Made by a program: the position numbers and the translations under genes. DNA of 56,974 nt from a virus (lineage: Duplodnaviria; Caudoviricetes). Positions within the stretch are counted from its first letter, which is position 1. The number at the start of each line of letters is the position of its first letter. Positions 5,580 through 56,815 of this stretch are shown here, one piece after another. The notes below the pieces were generated by a model that searched no databases, had not been told where the DNA came from, and saw only the letters and a list, made by a program, of their open reading frames with translations. The stretch covers positions 1 to 56,974 of the IMG/VR virus record IMGVR_UViG_3300044806_000037; one strand, given 5' to 3'.

Positions 5580-6320
5580 TTTTTCTCCTATGTTTAGTTG
5601 TTTGTTTTTATCGAGCCGTTGGGAGGCGAGCTCGTAGAGTCGCCTACCAAAGGCGTAACTACAGTTTTTGTTTTTTCTGTTGTTTCTGTTGTTTCTTTAT
5701 TAGCCAAGGCGGACCCCGGCCTTTAGGGGTCGACTTGGGCCTGGCTGTATTTGCTGAATACTGTATGTTTAATGCTGAATGCTGAATTCTAAATGCTGAT
5801 TGCTAATGTCACATTCTAAATTTTGTGATCTGTAGTGATGCTAAATGCTGCAGTATTATTTGTTGCTTTACACAGGTGCTTTTTTTGAAAAATATGCGGG
5901 GTTTTAGACGCAGGGCGGTGGTTTGAAAATTCTGCGCGGTTTTCATATTTAATTCCTAAAGTTTTGGTTTGGGTCTCTATCTGTATTATTTATATATATA
6001 TTATTATATATAATAATTAGATAGACTGGGAGATTTTCATTTTGTCCCTTTTCTCGATTGAATATGGTAAATTATACTCTTTTTCTCATTGTTTTTATCA
6101 TATTCAATTCCAATATCTAAACGCTACATCCGTAAACACTATTTATTTTCACTAATGAAATAGTATTTTTTTGAAGGAATAAAATAGTGTTTCTGGAAAT
6201 AGTGTGGGGTAGTGGTGGTTGAATATGGTAAAACTTATCATAAATAATTCTTTGACTATTTTGCGTTTTTTGCTTGACAAGCCTCTAAAAAGGACTAAAC
6301 TGGACTTATAACCAATCGAT
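5580..6320. promoter_or_regulatory. AT-rich divergent intergenic control region
   Basis: About 740 nt with no ORF between divergent operons; hairpins, an alternating-AT tract near 5990-6018 and repeated motifs. Confidence 0.7.
6274..6301 (+). promoter_or_regulatory. sigma70/SigA-type promoter
   Basis: TTGACA-16-TAAACT upstream of the first rightward gene. Confidence 0.7.
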
Positions 6321-6334
6321 CAAAGGAGGCCCAA

Positions 6335-6520
6335 ATGGCTAATGAAAGAGTTTACGATTATGCATTCGACCACGAAATTGCCGGTAGTTTGACAATTTCC
6401 ATTGTTGGCAAAGAAAGTTGGAACCACGAAATGTTTGACAGCGTGGCCTATGACACATTGGAAGAGTTGGTAAAAGTGCCAGGCGATTGGAGCATGAATG
6501 ATTGTTGGGAAACAACTTGA
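6335..6520 (+). CDS. small acidic hypothetical protein
   Basis: AAGGAGG RBS; 61 aa. Confidence 0.7.
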   Translation: MANERVYDYAFDHEIAGSLTISIVGKESWNHEMFDSVAYDTLEELVKVPGDWSMNDCWETT

Positions 6521-7016: not shown

Positions 7017-7214
7017 ATGCCAAAATACATTTTAGAAACAGTAGAAACAATAAACGGCTATTACGAGATTGAGGCCGCAACAATTGAAGAGGCTAGAGAG
7101 ATTGCTTTGAGCGACGACTTTACCGAAACTTATAATATTGAGTGGGTTGACGGCTATACTGAATGGGACGAAGATTATATTTACGAATTCAAGGAGGCAC
7201 AAAAGAATGGCTAA
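7017..7214 (+). CDS. small protein, DpnD/PcfM-like domain
   Basis: MPKYILETVETINGYYEIEAATIEEAREIAL. Confidence 0.6.
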   Translation: MPKYILETVETINGYYEIEAATIEEAREIALSDDFTETYNIEWVDGYTEWDEDYIYEFKEAQKNG

Positions 7215-16976: not shown

Positions 16977-17046
16977 GCCCCCACTGGTGGAATTCAGGCT
17001 CTTCTCCTTGGCCTGTATAGTTCGAGTTCGATTCTCGACCGGGGCA
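16977..17046 (+). ncRNA. degenerate tRNA-like element (possibly derived from tRNA-Glu CTC)
   Basis: GCCCC/GGGGC+A acceptor end, perfect T arm TCGAG-TTCGATT-CTCGA, CAGGC/GCCTG arm with an oversized TCTTCTCCTTG loop; D arm and inner acceptor pairs are defective. Confidence 0.6.
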
Positions 17047-47455: not shown

Positions 47456-49789
47456 TTACTTAGCTTCTAAAGCTTCTAGTCTGGCAGTCAAGTCCGCAAT
47501 TTGTGTTGCCTGGTGTCGGGCAACAGCCTGTAATGCAGTAACATACATGCTGTAATGAATACCCTCAATTGAACCGTTTTTACCGTAGTCAACTAGCTGA
47601 GTTAAACCTGCATCATGCAAGTCTTCAGCAATCATACCTAGCTCGATTGGGGCTTGGTCGCCAAGTTCTTCAACTGCGCTAATGTATCTAAAGAACTTTG
47701 GTTCGATCTCTAGCACGGCGTCGACGTTTATTTCGGCCCCTGTAATGTCTTGTTTTCTTTCACGGCTTGACGAGGCGTAACCGAAAACACCAGCAGAGCT
47801 CATCCACATGGCGCGACGAGTGGTAGTAATTTCGTTTGCGTAGGTGTCGTTGGAGTCTAGTAGCCCACCGAACTGAACTGTTCCACCACCAGAACCATTT
47901 AGAACGAGGGTCGCACCAACACCGTTAGTTAGGACCTCAATCTCGTTATTATCAATTCTTAAGTTGGTGCTAGAAGTTTCACCGATCTGGAAGTTGTGGT
48001 CTGTAGATGTTGCTGAAAGGTCTACAGCTGGGTTTAGTCTAATCCTAGAAGCGTTTACAGAACCGCCAAGAGTTAAATCGCCACCAGCATTAAATGTTAC
48101 ACGAGTATTTGTGCCTTCAATAAAGCGCAAGTCTGGTGTGCTAGTTGAACCAAAAGCGTCAATACCCCAAGCCATTTCATTGTCCAGTGCACGAGCAAAG
48201 TCAAGTTGTCCACCTTCAGAGGCGGAGTTGGTGCGGTGAAGCTTTGCATCAACGTTAGGCATGATGCCGGCTTCTTCAAGGGTCTTGTTTTCCCACAGGT
48301 TAGAAGCAGTGCGTTGGATTACTTCACCAGTTGCTGGCGAGCTAATCAGAACATCATGCAGCTCATTCAACTCGAAACCGTTTTGAGGCTTAACAAAGAT
48401 CTCACCATTGTTAGAGTTTGACCTTGTAACAACACCGATGAATACGAGATGTGCTGGTGCGACTGGCTTGTTTGCCAAACCATAAATTAGGTTGCCATTG
48501 GTCCCAAGCCACACAGGGTCGCCAGCTGTGGCTGTAGATGTGTCAAGTCCGGAAAGTAAACCTTCAGCGATTAACTTCACTTTAGCGTTAGTTGAACCAC
48601 CTAGTTCAAGCAATCCCATAGTCTTTGAAGATGTGGCCTCCGAAGCGTTAGAAGCCTTAGAGACAATCATGTTTGTGCCGTCAGCAGAGCTTACATAAAC
48701 AGCTTGACCTTTAGAAATTGATTCGCCCAGTTTAACTTCGTGCTTAACTTGCGAAGTCCAGTTGGCGTAGTTGTCAATCCAGGTAGTGCTGTAGTCTGTT
48801 CCGTCAAGCTTTGCAAGGATTTGTCCAGCATCTCCGCCGGTTGGAATACCAACGCCAGGGTCGCCTTGAGGCCCAGTTGCACCATCGGCACCGTCGGCAC
48901 CTGCGGATCCTGTAGGACCAGTTTCGCCTTGAATGCCTTGCTCCCCTTGAATACCCTGTGGACCCGTAGGCCCAGTGGGGCCAGTGGCTCCAGTTTCACC
49001 TTGCGGGCCTGTGGGACCTGTAGCGCCGTCTGCGCCATCAGTTCCGTCAATTCCATCCGCACCAGCTGGTCCAGGCTCGCCTTGAGGCCCCTGAGGGCCT
49101 GTTTCACCAGTTAAACCGTTCTCGCCCTGGACACCTCGCTCACCCTCCGGCCCCTGTGGGCCAACCAAGCTAGCAAGCCACTCAGTCTCAGTGCCTGTGA
49201 ACCCTTCAACCTGCGCAACCTGATAAGCACTAAGTCCAGTTAGTCCATCTGATCCAGCCGGTCCTTGAGGACCAGTCGCACCTGTCGCACCAGTAGCCCC
49301 AGTCGCACCTGTCTCGCCCTGGATTCCTTGGGGACCAGTAGGCCCCACTTCACCCTGTGGACCAGTAGCACCAGTTGCACCTGTAGCTCCGTCAGCTCCG
49401 GGTTGTCCATCTGCACCATCAGCTCCCGCTGGGCCCTGAGCCCCATTCTCACCTTGAATACCTTGAATACCTTGCTCACCCTGAATACCCTGCTCTCCTT
49501 GAGGCCCTTGCGGACCAGTTTCACCTTGCGGACCCTGCGCGCCATCAGCGCCATCAGCCCCATCAATACCAGGCTCACCCTGCAAACCCTGTGGCCCAGT
49601 CGGACCGGCAGGACCTTCCGGCCCCTGTGGCCCAGTCGGACCAGGTGTGCCAGTAGAAGAAGTAGAGTCTCCCCCACCACCGCCACCGCCACCAATAGGA
49701 CGCTTATCAAGCTTCTTAATTTCGCGCTCGACAGTATCGGCCCAGTCTTGCGACCCGCCTGGAAGATTATTGTCTGGAAAGATTATCAT
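47456..49789 (-). CDS. collagen-repeat fibre protein with a C-terminal S74-type intramolecular chaperone
   Basis: About 250 aa of Gly-X-Y; [32 protein letters not shown]. Confidence 0.85.
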
Positions 49790-49805
49790 CCTCCAATTCT
49801 ACCAC

Positions 49806-49867
49806 AAAAAAGCGCCACCCTGGAGTAAAAACTCAACAGGGTGGCAGTCGCGAAGGAGGCGCGCGAC
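49806..49867 (-). ncRNA. predicted 62-nt sRNA with an anti-SD loop
   Basis: TGcTATAAT promoter (49874-49882), hairpin GUCGCG-CGCCUCCUU-CGCGAC, terminator GCCACCCUG/CAGGGUGGC plus U6. Confidence 0.6.
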
Positions 49868-49885
49868 AATACTATTATAGCAGGT

Positions 49886-49917
49886 AAAAGAAAACCCCCA
49901 CCGAAGTGGGGGCTTTC
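49886..49917 (-). terminator. intrinsic terminator after the major capsid gene
   Basis: GCCCCCAC-TTCG-GTGGGGGT followed by TTTCTTTT. Confidence 0.85.
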
Positions 49918-49929
49918 ATTGTGAAGCTA

Positions 49930-51039
49930 TTAGCTAGCGGCACCAGTCGAAGCGATGGTTCCGGTTGGAAGCAAGAAGCCACCAGTAGCAATGTGACGGA
50001 TTCTCATCTCGAAGTCGTCGTTGTCGAACGAACCTTCGCGAGCTGGAACCTGGCCACCACCAAGGTATAGACCCGAGTTTGCCTTCACGCGAAGCTCTGG
50101 AGCTTCGTGTCCGCGTAGGAAACCAAGAACGATACCTGGGTTGATTGTGTCCGAAGGCACAGGTAGCAAGAACCACATCTTGTCAGCGTTGCTGTTGTTG
50201 TAGATCTTCTTAATCCAAGGGTTTACAACGATCTGGATCGAAGAAGCAATTGGGTTACCCGAAACAGTCGAAGTAACAGTGCTTCCCGAAGTGATCTCGT
50301 TGCGAACCTGCTGGATAGCAAGGATCTTCTTAGCAGTTAGCTCAAGAGCCTGTGGCACAACAAGCACGAAACGGCTTAGAGGTGTTACAGAGTTACCATT
50401 GTAGGTCTGAACGTTTGCTGCGGTGATAGCTGCCTCAAGAGCCTCTAGCGATAGAACTGGGTTGCCCGAAAGCAAGTTCTGGTTACCAGACTTGAAGTTG
50501 TCGGTGTTTAGACCAGAAGCGCCAACAAGCTGCTTCGTAACTTCTTCGTCTTCCTTGCCAGCAGCCTTGCGGGCTAGCTCCAAAGGTAGACGCTCTAGTA
50601 GCGAGATGTTGCCATCGTTAACGATTGATTCCCATGAGAAACGAACGCGCGAACCGGCCTTCTTCACAGAGAACTCAGCCTCTGAGAAAGAGAACCAACC
50701 AGCGGTAGGATACTCGTCGTATTCGCCAACAGTTGGAAGCGAACCATTGCGGAACTTGTCGCCAGCGTTGTCAAGACCTTCGTCTTCGTAAGCTAGGTTC
50801 ATGTATTGCTGTGGGCGGAAGTCATCAACAACAAGCTTGGTAGCGAAAGCGTCCCAAACCTTTGGCTGCTCTGCATAGTTTGCAAGCATAATCTTGTTGA
50901 TGGTTGGGGCAAGCTGAACTGGCAGGTCAGAGGTAGAGATACCTTCCTGTAGCTTTAGCTTGTCCATGCGGTCACCGCGTAGAGCACCTTCGAGGAGCTT
51001 TGCGGCTTCAACCTGGCGGGTTGTAATGTTTTCAGTCAT
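49930..51039 (-). CDS. major capsid protein
   Basis: EGISTSDLP..VDDFRP..LPTVGEYDEY..SWESIVND..GFLRGHEAPE..FDNDDFEMRIRH; position and codon bias. Confidence 0.9.
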   Translation of the reverse strand: MTENITTRQVEAAKLLEGALRGDRMDKLKLQEGISTSDLPVQLAPTINKIMLANYAEQPKVWDAFATKLVVDDFRPQQYMNLAYEDEGLDNAGDKFRNGSLPTVGEYDEYPTAGWFSFSEAEFSVKKAGSRVRFSWESIVNDGNISLLERLPLELARKAAGKEDEEVTKQLVGASGLNTDNFKSGNQNLLSGNPVLSLEALEAAITAANVQTYNGNSVTPLSRFVLVVPQALELTAKKILAIQQVRNEITSGSTVTSTVSGNPIASSIQIVVNPWIKKIYNNSNADKMWFLLPVPSDTINPGIVLGFLRGHEAPELRVKANSGLYLGGGQVPAREGSFDNDDFEMRIRHIATGGFLLPTGTIASTGAAS

Positions 51040-56361: not shown

Positions 56362-56599
56362 ACACACATCCTACCACACCATTTTCACAAAACAGCTTCC
56401 GATACGCATGTGGGGGGAGAACACTACCTTATTTATCTTTTCGGCTAATAAATTGAAGTCTTTGATACCACACTGGAGGGCTGGCGGATGCGAGCGTCGC
56501 TGGCGGCGTGAGTAGACGACAATTGGCCGAATTAGGAAAAGGCCGATAACCGAAGGGGGAGTTCGATTACCGGCTTTCCTGTCTAGCGTGAAGGGGGGG

Positions 56600-56815
56600 T
56601 TACGCTAGAAACTTGCGAACAGCGTGGGCTGTTGCGGCGATTGTGGTGAGTAGCATGATTGTTAGGCTTGCGGTGAAGAACATGTTTCCGTGTTCTAACG
56701 CTTTGGCTATGCTGGTTTCGCCGTCTTGTAGTTGGCGGGCTATGCTGTCGTTGTTGGCTTGAACGAACCATGCGAGCGTGAGTGTGGTTGTCCACATTAG
56801 GATTAGCGTTTTCAT
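56600..56815 (-). CDS. small two-TM membrane protein
   Basis: GAAAGG RBS; two hydrophobic segments. Confidence 0.6.
   Translation of the reverse strand: MKTLILMWTTTLTLAWFVQANNDSIARQLQDGETSIAKALEHGNMFFTASLTIMLLTTIAATAHAVRKFLA

What the first reader, a model, noticed from the sequence alone, without database searches (positions are those of the whole stretch)
49806..49882. Self-contained late sRNA displaying a 16S-tail mimic (GCCUCCUU)
Seen on the minus strand, just after the capsid terminator: an extended -10 TGCTATAAT, the same 6-nt spacing as the leaderless promoters, then GUCGCG-CGCCUCCUU-CGCGAC, a 9-bp terminator stem and U6. The loop is the perfect complement of AAGGAGGC, the RBS of the first rightward gene (6323-6330) and of the 7207 gene (7191-7198). 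Inference: a trans-acting anti-SD RNA that silences early phage or host SD-led mRNAs late in infection while leaderless late genes escape. It may work with the other C/U-rich loop RNAs at 16977 and 56534.
Basis: partly seen in the sequence, partly recalled or inferred. Interest (0 to 1): 0.75.

Follow-up and report, generated by a model that had tools for sequence, protein, structure and literature searches.

The report
Conserved phage small RNA mimicking 16S tail
A family of uncultured freshwater phages of actinobacteria keeps a roughly 60-95-base RNA gene in front of its tail-fibre gene, and its first hairpin always shows the sequence that ribosomes use to dock on messenger RNAs, so it probably blocks ribosome-binding sites, though no transcript or target has been seen.

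Summary
The element is a conserved structured RNA. A covariance model finds one strong copy in the window and in 63 of 80 related viral loci, and 29 more among 74 pattern-picked metagenome stretches.

- **Structure:** both stems covary (15 of 18 pairs with double changes, 0 of 500 shuffles as good).
- **Loop:** it keeps CUCCU in 49 of 49 distinct copies and CCUCCUU in 36 of 49. That matches the 16S 3' end read from three genomes of the likely host family.
- **Own signals:** a -10 hexamer lies 4-8 nt before hairpin 1 in 51 of 53 copies. A second -10 lies 6-11 nt before the next gene's ATG.
- **Position:** it sits 17-37 nt before the fibre start in 62 of 62 loci that hold that start.

Transcription, late timing and any target are not shown. 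The anti-SD reading is likely (about 0.45). It has weak support from stronger loop pairing with rightward (putatively early) genes. A cis role at the tail operon is the main rival.

There is no Rfam match. The RNAs at 16977 and 56534 are not relatives. The scan noted analogous phage anti-SD RNAs on other DNA, none alike in sequence.

The parts
49890..49917 (-). Intrinsic terminator of the capsid gene (12-pair stem, UUCG loop, U tract). It lies upstream of the element and is not part of it.
   Evidence: Terminator scan and sequence. In relatives, other genes are inserted between this terminator and the element.
49874..49882 (-). P1: extended -10 promoter TGCTATAAT (hexamer 49879-49874), with no -35 match.
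   Evidence: Sequence. A TAnnnT hexamer lies 4-8 nt before the first stem base in 51 of 53 distinct copies, with TGn in 40 of those 51. Activity is not tested.
49806..49867 (-). Predicted small RNA of 62 nt, from the predicted start G49867 to the end of the U tract.
   Evidence: Fold at -30.7 kcal/mol, z = -4.95. Covariance model hit at 64.1 bits, E 4.4e-11, the only hit in the window. The ends are inferred, not measured.
49847..49867 (-). Hairpin 1: a 6-bp stem (49867-49862 with 49852-49847) that starts at the predicted 5' end.
   Evidence: All 6 pairs show changes on both sides, with 97.0% of cells paired in the model-fitted alignment. All 6 also show double changes in the unfitted MAFFT alignment, where some rows are misaligned and 71.1% of cells pair.
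49853..49861 (-). Loop CGCCUCCUU. The core CCUCCUU is identical to the anti-Shine-Dalgarno part of the 16S 3' tail.
   Evidence: CUCCU is present in 49 of 49 distinct copies, CCUCCU in 39 of 49 and CCUCCUU in 36 of 49. The 16S 3' end reads ...GGAUCACCUCCUUU in three genomes of the likely host family.
49814..49845 (-). Hairpin 2: a terminator-type stem with the conserved core CCCYG-U[UAC]-GAG...CUC-CRGGG and a 2-nt bulge.
   Evidence: Of the outer 8 pairs, 7 show double changes and 99.8% of cells pair. The inner GAG/CUC never varies. U-G pairs at one position in 23 of 50 rows show that this strand is the one that folds. The bulged form occurs once in the window, and all 40 exact matches in the 80 loci lie inside the element.
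49806..49811 (-). U6 tract after hairpin 2.
   Evidence: Sequence. At least 5 U among the 9 nt after the stem in 42 of 51 copies.
49796..49804 (-). P2: TGGTAGAAT (hexamer 49801-49796), 6 nt before the fibre ATG. This is the promoter of a leaderless mRNA.
   Evidence: Sequence. TATAAT or TAGAAT lies 6-11 nt before the ATG in 48 of 50 copies. The hexamer starts 10-26 nt after hairpin 2.
47456..49789 (-). Collagen-like tail-fibre gene (777 aa), the first gene after the element.
   Evidence: ORF list and translation with Gly-X-Y repeats. DNA matches to annotated tail-fibre and collagen-repeat genes. The element lies 17-37 nt before this start in 62 of 62 loci that hold it.

Best explanation
This is a small-RNA gene of a lineage of uncultured freshwater actinobacterial phages.

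**Shown by comparison**
- The unit is conserved as a whole: promoter P1, hairpin 1, hairpin 2 with a U tract, then promoter P2.
- Both stems are kept by compensatory change.
- The hairpin-1 loop keeps CUCCU, mostly CCUCCUU, which is the anti-Shine-Dalgarno core of the host family's 16S tail.

**Inferred**
- Host RNA polymerase starts at P1, 6-7 nt after the -10 hexamer. The RNA would then begin with a paired 5' end, which should make it stable.
- Transcription stops at hairpin 2, giving about 62 nt in this phage and 60-95 nt in relatives.
- The open loop pairs with AAGGAG[G/A] ribosome-binding sites and keeps 30S subunits off them, as C/U-rich loops of other Gram-positive and alphaproteobacterial sRNAs do.
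- mRNAs with strong sites would be hit hardest. In this phage these are mainly the rightward replication-side genes, and probably host mRNAs too.
- Leaderless mRNAs, such as the fibre mRNA that starts just downstream, have nothing for the loop to bind.

Timing, abundance and targets are unknown.
For: **Family**
- The model gives one strong hit (40-72 bits) in the window and in 63 of 80 capsid-related loci.
- It gives 13 hits of 49-70 bits among 17 further viral loci and 29 hits of at least 47 bits among 74 metagenome stretches.

**Structure**
- 97.9% of cells pair against 72.1% in shuffles, and 15 of 18 pairs show double changes, with 0 of 500 shuffles as good.
- The unfitted alignment agrees for hairpin 2 (99.2% of cells paired).

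**Loop**
- CUCCU is present in 49 of 49 copies while the stem varies freely.
- The loop matches the 16S tail read.

**Own transcription signals**
- P1 sits at a fixed distance in 51 of 53 copies, and the U tract and P2 are also kept.

**Independence of the downstream gene**
- The unit persists where that gene is different (L056; L238 and L260).
- A look-alike stands in unrelated podovirus-like contigs after a terminase-like ORF.

**Pairing bias**
- In the window the loop pairs better with rightward genes than with late-arm genes, p = 0.0012. The two best sites are the genes at 6336 and 7207, at -14.3 and -14.7 kcal/mol.

**Precedent**
- C-rich loops of the actinobacterial 6C sRNA bind G-rich ribosome-binding sites without a chaperone (PMC6486639, passages read).
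- Cuckoo RNAs keep only an aSD-like loop while their stems covary (PMC4615179, passages read).
Against: - No RNA evidence exists. Contigs of two metatranscriptomes cover the capsid and fibre genes of a relative but not 49756-49879. This shows nothing either way.
- The unit is almost always welded to the fibre promoter: 62 of 62 viral loci and 27 of 29 metagenome hits. A cis role explains this more directly.
- Hairpin 2 has a conserved sequence and a conserved bulge that a plain sRNA terminator does not need.
- The early-versus-late bias is weak in relatives. It runs the same way in 7 of 9 and is significant alone in none. The one relative with a UCUCCU loop goes the other way (L079: early -4.0, late -5.4).
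- Late genes, including the capsid gene, still carry short SD sites (AAGGA) that the loop could also bind.
- Gene starts in these counts are crude ORF calls.
- Exact AAGGAGG sites are no commoner than chance.
Confidence: 0.45

Rival explanations
1. The unit is a cis-acting control unit of the tail operon, and the RNA matters only for the polymerase that makes it or for the neighbouring promoter. Three variants are possible:
- Hairpin 1 is a protein-binding loop, in the manner of lambda boxB, and hairpin 2 is a tunable terminator. P1 transcripts then read into the tail genes only when a phage factor is present, in the manner of lambda PR'-tR' (both recalled).
- Polymerase that stops at hairpin 2, 10-26 nt before the P2 hexamer, occludes or feeds P2.
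- The pair is an insulator that keeps heavy capsid transcription out of the leaderless fibre promoter.
For: - The element is fixed 17-37 nt before the fibre start in 62 of 62 loci.
- At least six kinds of insert land between the capsid terminator and P1. The only insert seen downstream, L260, lies after P2 and not between hairpin 2 and P2.
- A P2-like hexamer was found in 50 of the 51 copies scored, with narrow spacing.
- Hairpin 2 has a conserved core and bulge found nowhere else in these genomes.
- An invariant loop on a covarying stem is also what a protein-binding hairpin looks like.
Against: - P2 gives the fibre gene its own start, so read-through from P1 is not needed.
- A leadered read-through mRNA would have no ribosome-binding site in most relatives.
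- The terminator ends inside the P2 promoter region, so the adjacency can be explained by overlapping signals alone.
- Hairpin 2 shares its core with plain terminators of the host family, two of them after EF-Tu-like ORFs.
- In the window a 1-nt linker leaves no room for an alternative antiterminator fold.
- The loop being the exact 16S tail core would be a coincidence under this reading.
Confidence: 0.25
2. The RNA is a decoy of the 16S 3' tail for a protein, not for mRNA. The exposed CCUCCUU would soak up a factor that recognises the ribosome's tail. One candidate is a MazF-type toxin that cuts off the anti-SD sequence during abortive infection. Another is a 16S maturation factor.
For: - The loop is identical to the 16S tail core.
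- An actinobacterial toxin that removes the anti-SD sequence by cutting at CACCU exists: MazF-mt11 (PMC12274833, abstract read).
- Invariance of the loop with a free stem fits protein recognition as well as it fits pairing.
Against: - CACCU is present in only 2 of the 49 distinct copies in the list (the CACCUCCUU type), so a MazF-mt11-type site is not conserved.
- No such toxin or factor was looked for in a host genome.
- The order of helix and tail differs from that in 16S rRNA.
- Nothing here tests binding.
Confidence: 0.1
3. There is no RNA function beyond termination. A second terminator and two promoters were kept by descent, and the loop motif is a passenger.
For: - Hairpin 2 with its U tract is a good terminator.
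- Terminator-promoter pairs are ordinary at operon borders.
Against: - The loop is invariant and P1 keeps its distance while the flanks, spacer and stem letters turn over, in lineages whose capsid proteins are only 71-98% identical.
- A passenger motif would have drifted like the stems.
Confidence: 0.07

Closest known systems
Cuckoo RNAs (CcsR / alpha-r14 type) of Alphaproteobacteria (PMC4615179, passages read)
   Same: - The hairpin loop carries an anti-SD-like motif.
- The motif is the only conserved sequence, while the stems change by compensatory mutation.
- The proposed action is occlusion of ribosome-binding sites.
   Different: - Cuckoo RNAs have 2-4 hairpins that each carry CCUCCUCCC, and they are chromosomal in Alphaproteobacteria.
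- Here there is one CCUCCUU loop plus a conserved bulged terminator, and the gene is phage-borne.
- There is no Rfam hit at the gathering score or up to E = 10.
6C sRNA of Actinobacteria (PMC6486639, passages read)
   Same: - It belongs to the same host phylum.
- Exposed C-rich loops pair with G-rich ribosome-binding sites without Hfq or ProQ.
- It is a small, hairpin-built RNA.
   Different: - 6C uses two C-rich loops and is a host gene with specific targets (panD, dnaB).
- Here there is a single C/U loop equal to the 16S tail, in a phage.
- No Rfam match was found, and no homologue was found in 151 sampled genomes of the likely host family.
csRNAs of streptococci (PMC3091779, passages read)
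   Same: - They are 51-202 nt RNAs predicted from a promoter plus a terminator.
- Most have two stem-loops.
- They carry sequence complementary to SD sites.
   Different: [quoted passage not shown]
- Here the motif sits in the apical loop of the first hairpin, and no conserved anti-AUG was seen in the consensus.
Lambda PR'-tR' 6S RNA and nut/put-type leaders (recalled, no paper read here)
   Same: A strong promoter is followed within about 60-200 nt by a terminator, at the head of a long block of structural genes. The RNA hairpins have fixed loops.
   Different: - The downstream gene here has its own leaderless promoter.
- No antiterminator protein or site was identified.
- The unit lies between the head and tail modules, not at the start of all late genes.
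Other phage anti-SD-loop RNA candidates noted by this scan (e1-5901034, e1-6221688, e1-6018617; AI notes, untested here)
   Same: They are conserved phage RNAs that expose CCUCC-type loops. One is in phages of a Curtobacterium-type host, which I recall as belonging to the same bacterial family as Rhodoluna.
   Different: - They share no sequence likeness with this element.
- Their architecture and position differ: two loops before the packaging genes, or an antisense copy of the phage's own ribosome-binding hairpin.

Membership tests
Trans-acting sRNAs with anti-SD-like loops (kind: cuckoo, 6C, csRNA, RNAIII hairpins) | Independent small transcript with its own promoter and terminator | tested here: inconclusive
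   The signals are conserved: P1 in 51 of 53 copies, and a U tract with at least 5 of 9 U in 42 of 51. No RNA ends were observed, and the RNA contigs gave no cover.
Trans-acting sRNAs with anti-SD-like loops (kind: cuckoo, 6C, csRNA, RNAIII hairpins) | Unpaired C/U-rich motif complementary to SD, conserved while the carrying stem covaries | tested here: met
   CUCCU is present in 49 of 49 copies and CCUCCUU in 36 of 49. All 6 stem pairs show double changes. The loop is unpaired in the MFE fold.
Trans-acting sRNAs with anti-SD-like loops (kind: cuckoo, 6C, csRNA, RNAIII hairpins) | Base pairing with ribosome-binding sites of target mRNAs that lowers their translation | not testable with these tools
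   Only predicted duplex energies are available. They are suggestive in the window and weak in relatives.
Cuckoo RNA family | 2-4 adjacent hairpins that each carry CCUCCUCCC (PMC4615179) | tested here: not met
   There is one motif-bearing hairpin, and the motif is CCUCCUU. No Rfam family matched.
6C RNA | Match to the curated model; two C-rich loops | tested here: not met
   There is no Rfam match at the gathering score over the window, and none up to E = 10 on 49760-49900. Only one loop is present.
csRNA | Anti-SD plus anti-start-codon in the unpaired stretch between two stem-loops; CiaR-type promoter (PMC3091779) | tested here: not met
   The motif lies in the hairpin loop. In the window the linker is 1 nt. 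The promoter is a -10-only type.
Intrinsic terminator (hairpin 2) | G+C-rich stem followed by a U tract | tested here: met
   The stem has 9 outer and 4 inner pairs followed by U6. The U tract is kept. The core is shared with terminators in the host family. The simple scan did not list it, because its loop and bulge exceed that scan's rules.
Promoter-proximal attenuator or antitermination leader (lambda PR'-tR', nut, put; recalled) | Downstream genes depend on read-through from the upstream promoter | tested here: not met
   A separate -10 hexamer lies 6-11 nt before the next ATG in 48 of 50 copies. Read-through itself is not measurable here.

The most novel reading that the evidence does not exclude
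The RNA is a stoichiometric copy of the ribosome's mRNA-docking tail: a general sponge for Shine-Dalgarno sites. It would be made from many phage genome copies in very small host cells that hold few ribosomes. It would shut down SD-dependent initiation on host and replication-side phage mRNAs, and hand the ribosomes to the phage's leaderless and weak-SD structural mRNAs. The first of these starts 17-37 nt downstream of the RNA gene. That would be a phage-driven switch between the two bacterial modes of translation initiation.
Probability: 0.2. Interest if true: 0.85.

Novelty: new member of a known kind. Interest (0 to 1): 0.55.

Why it matters
Small RNAs of phages are few, and almost none have a known role in actinobacterial phages.

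This one is a clean, testable case:
- It is a short RNA with one invariant 5-7-nt loop equal to the 16S tail.
- It is present in about a hundred contigs from many freshwater samples.
- It sits next to a leaderless promoter, in a host group where leaderless mRNAs are common.

If the loop does bind ribosome-binding sites, it gives a simple handle on how a phage can favour one mode of translation initiation over the other.

If the cis reading is right instead, it is a new kind of promoter-terminator-promoter control unit for tail genes.

Either way, the covariance model built here can annotate the element in freshwater viromes.

Tried and rejected
- **Rfam:** no family at the gathering score over the whole window except two tRNAs and a tmRNA-like hit near 17.2-17.8 kb. 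On 49760-49900 nothing scored better than E = 1.9.
- **Cultured phages:** blastn of 49400-50400 against 50,697 phage records matched only the collagen repeats of the fibre gene and nothing over the element. The best capsid match by tblastn is 42% identical.
- **Expression:** of 22 runs listed I laid three RNA runs and one DNA run, all kept as contigs. In X5 a relative's capsid and fibre genes are covered, but 49756-49879 has no cover. X18 and X21 cover little. Small RNAs are usually lost from such libraries, and the relative may differ here, so this says nothing.
- **Further copies in the window:** none. The bulged hairpin occurs once.
- **Host homologue:** a scan of genome contigs gave 30 pattern matches, of which only L134, a 9,473-base contig of a Rhodoluna sp. 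MAG, scores as the element (64.9 bits). All other pattern matches scored 26.8 bits or less, and by their sequence they look like chance matches in G+C-rich DNA; reading frames were not checked. In 151 sampled genomes of that MAG's family the only real hit is that contig itself. The three weak hits are plain terminators. I write 'not found in those searched', not 'absent'.
- **+ strand ORF for the AAGGAGG:** none starts within 46 nt.
- **Riboswitch-like alternative fold:** rejected, because the window's linker is 1 nt and both hairpins are very stable.
- **Loop flavour against SD flavour:** I wanted to test whether CCUCCU or UCUCCU loops follow the SD flavour of each phage. There was no power. 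Only one contig with a UCUCCU loop also gave an early-region locus (L079/L195), and there the early genes do not pair better.
- **Supplements:** I opened no supplementary files of the papers. They may hold loop and target lists for 6C and cuckoo RNAs.

Full report
**What is there**

The window is a complete 56,974-base virus record with terminal repeats. On the minus strand the capsid ORF ends at 49930, and its terminator hairpin lies at 49917-49890. After it come these features, all read:
- TGCTATAAT at 49882-49874
- six bases of spacer
- a 6-bp hairpin, 49867-49847, with the loop CGCCUCCUU
- one base
- a longer hairpin, 49845-49814, made of 9 outer pairs, a UU bulge, 4 inner pairs and a UUUU loop
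- U6 at 49811-49806
- TGGTAGAAT at 49804-49796
- six bases, then the ATG at 49789 of a 777-aa collagen-like fibre gene

The 68-nt stretch folds into exactly these two hairpins at -30.7 kcal/mol, z = -4.95.

**Is it more than chance?**

The single sequence cannot say. The two 'perfect' AAGGAGGC sites at 6323 and 7191 are real and lie in front of start codons. But AAGGAGG occurs 4 times in the window against 6.88 expected.

The comparative evidence decides it. The capsid protein found 133 relatives in the viral collection, and the best 80 loci (71-98% identical) were fetched. A covariance model built from 41 distinct copies finds one strong hit (39.9-72.3 bits) in the window and in 63 of the 80 loci. 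Its only other hit is weak, at a capsid terminator.

On the model-fitted alignment (50 distinct rows, the weak row included):
- 97.9% of cells pair, against 72.1% in shuffles.
- 15 of 18 pairs show changes on both sides.
- No shuffle out of 500, and no slid register, comes close.

Because that alignment leans towards the model, I repeated the count on the plain MAFFT alignment. Hairpin 2 is 99.2% paired there, with 7 of 12 pairs doubly changed. Hairpin 1 shows double changes at all 6 pairs but only 71.1% pairing, because MAFFT misaligns it in some rows. U-G pairs in 23 of 50 rows at one position show that the folded strand is the minus strand.

**What is conserved besides pairing**
- The hairpin-1 loop keeps CUCCU in 49 of 49 distinct true copies, CCUCCU in 39 and CCUCCUU in 36. 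Eight copies have UCUCCU.
- Hairpin 2 keeps CCCYG-U[UAC]-GAG ... CUC-CRGGG, with a 2-nt bulge.
- This bulged form occurs once in the window, and all 40 exact matches in the 80 loci lie inside the element.
- Many distant relatives have a GU-rich linker (UGUGUUGUGUG) between the hairpins. The window has none.

**The 16S comparison rests on data**

A scan of genome contigs gave one real copy of the element, on a 9,473-base contig of a MAG titled Rhodoluna sp.. This is a host lead, not proof. In three small genomes of that MAG's family the 16S rRNA ends ...GGAUCACCUCCUUU. The commonest loop core, CCUCCUU, is that tail. Some loops extend the match (CACCUCCUU, UACCUCCUUU).

**Transcription signals**

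Counts come from 53 distinct copies with flanks.
- A TAnnnT hexamer lies 4-8 nt before the first paired base in 51 of 53 copies. The spacing is 6 nt in 26 copies and 7 nt in 13.
- TGn precedes the hexamer in 40 of those 51. The RNA would therefore begin with a paired 5' end.
- After hairpin 2, at least 5 of the next 9 bases are U in 42 of 51 copies.
- A second hexamer, TATAAT in 27 copies and TAGAAT in 21, starts 10-26 nt after hairpin 2 and ends 6-11 nt before the next ATG, in 48 of 50 copies. This is the geometry of a leaderless mRNA.

None of this is activity. It is conservation of signals at fixed distances while the letters around them change.

**Position**
- The element does not belong to the capsid gene. 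In relatives, nrdH-like genes, genes I read as reductase-like and lipoprotein-like from their first residues (not searched), HNH-like genes and other inserts sit between the capsid terminator and P1.
- In 62 of 62 loci that contain the fibre N-terminus, the element ends 17-37 nt before the fibre start. One locus (L056) has the element before a different gene. The other 17 loci have neither.
- A pattern scan of the viral collection gave 43 stretches. Of the 41 new loci, 37 are followed by the fibre-type start. The four exceptions are L089, L093 and L117 (one type) and L100.
- Among 74 metagenome stretches, 29 are real by the model (at least 47 bits). By reading, 27 of these precede a fibre-type start. 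The script's own flag marked 23, and I added three MVFFPD starts and one mis-picked ATG by eye.
- In L260 an HNH-like gene follows P2, and in L238 a different gene does.
- So the constant unit is P1-RNA-P2, and the gene behind P2 is usually, but not always, the fibre.

**How it most likely works**

An invariant, open, 16S-tail-like loop on a freely varying stem is the signature of the known sRNAs that pair with ribosome-binding sites:
- Cuckoo RNAs: only the loop motif is conserved and the stems covary (PMC4615179, passages).
- The actinobacterial 6C RNA: C-rich loops bind G-rich ribosome-binding sites without a chaperone (PMC6486639, passages).
- Streptococcal csRNAs (PMC3091779, passages).

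I therefore take base pairing with AAGGAG[G/A] sites as the most likely action (0.45).

In the window, predicted loop-leader duplexes are stronger for 22 rightward genes (median -8.0 kcal/mol, 13 at -8 or below) than for 24 late-arm genes (median -5.9, 6 at -8 or below), one-sided p = 0.0012.

In nine relatives with both regions in hand the direction is the same in 7, significant alone in none, and the pooled p is 0.03. Two of the nine are near-identical, and gene starts are crude.

Late genes are not free of SD sites. The capsid gene has AAGGA. 'Late genes escape' therefore holds, at best, by degree.

**The main rival**

The welding of the unit to P2, the narrow spacing, and the conserved sequence and bulge of hairpin 2 are what a cis-acting device would show. 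Such a device could be a protein-bound loop with a tunable terminator, promoter occlusion or hand-over, or an insulator.

Against it:
- P2 makes read-through unnecessary.
- A read-through mRNA would lack a ribosome-binding site in most relatives.
- The terminator ends inside the P2 promoter region, so there is simply no neutral place for an insertion.
- The hairpin-2 core is the same as in plain terminators of the host family, two of them after EF-Tu-like ORFs, apart from the UU bulge.
- The look-alike in podovirus-like contigs argues for a movable, self-contained RNA gene. It has a 9-bp hairpin with a GCCUCCUUA loop, a second free CACCUCC, and the same bulged terminator with U7, after a terminase-like ORF. 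It was picked by a pattern that did not ask for hairpin 1. It scores only 31-33 bits.

I give the cis reading 0.25, a protein decoy 0.10 and 'no RNA function' 0.07.

- 'Late' is an inference from position. P1 is a -10-only promoter like the others of the late arm, while the first rightward gene has a TTGACA-type promoter. But such promoters can also be constitutive.
- The RNAs at 16977 and 56534 are not relatives of this element. The other is the terminator of the gene at 56600-56815, with a CUCCCCC loop. Whether they act together cannot be tested here.

**Novelty**

No Rfam family matches. No cultured phage in the collection holds the element. Four literature searches listed no paper whose title or abstract start describes such an RNA in freshwater actinophages. 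I read only the listings, apart from the papers named above.

The kind, an sRNA with an anti-SD-like loop, is well known. This scan has also noted analogous phage candidates on other DNA, none alike in sequence. I therefore rate it a new member of a known kind.

Its less ordinary sides are the exact 16S-tail core, the fixed place in front of a leaderless promoter, and the conserved bulged terminator, which remains unexplained.

Noticed in passing
L002-L081, between the capsid terminator and P1 (window equivalent about 49883-49889): This is a hot spot for inserted genes. Relatives carry nrdH-like genes, genes I read as reductase-like and lipoprotein-like from their first residues, HNH-like genes, a small very basic ORF, or extra non-coding stretches here. 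All are upstream of P1. These labels were not checked by any search.
   Followed up: partly
Alignment A2, linker between the two hairpins (absent in the window; for example L026, L012, L059, L066): Many distant relatives have a GU-rich linker (UGUGUUGUGUG-like) of 10-30 nt. Its role is unknown, and no conserved partner was found.
   Followed up: no
L089, L093, L117 (viral) and L286 (metagenome): A look-alike lies in unrelated, higher-G+C, podovirus-like contigs, directly after a terminase-like ORF. It has a hairpin with a GCCUCCUUA loop, a second free CACCUCC, and the same UU-bulged terminator with U7. It is followed by an SD-led small gene and a portal-like ORF. It scores 31-33 bits and was selected by pattern.
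   Followed up: partly
L157-L159, just after the 16S 3' end: In three genomes of the likely host family the 16S tail CCUCCUUU is followed after 2 nt by AAGGAG. The precursor could therefore fold back on its own anti-SD sequence, and the phage loop could in principle pair with that trailer too.
   Followed up: no
L154 and L156 (host-family genomes): Terminators after ORFs with an EF-Tu-like C-terminus carry CCCCGGAGC...GCUCCGGGG. This is the core of the phage's hairpin 2 without the UU bulge. L155 has a UA-bulged version after an unrelated ORF.
   Followed up: partly
L134 = G001:C48 (9,473-base contig of a MAG titled Rhodoluna sp.): This is the only real copy of the element found in the genome collection, and so a host lead for this phage family. 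It may be a mis-binned phage contig or a prophage piece.
   Followed up: partly
L260 and L238 (metagenome contigs): In L260 an HNH-like small gene starts 6 nt after the P2 hexamer, where the fibre gene normally starts. In L238 a different gene (MAVNDIPS...) follows P2.
   Followed up: no
window 56520-56590, minus strand: The terminator hairpin of the gene at 56600-56815 has a long stem and a CUCCCCC loop. It is not matched by the model.
   Followed up: partly
window 6260-6340, plus strand: The first rightward gene has a TTGACA-type -35 with a TAAACT -10, and the strongest SD of the genome (AAAGGAGGCC). The late arm, by contrast, has -10-only promoters.
   Followed up: no
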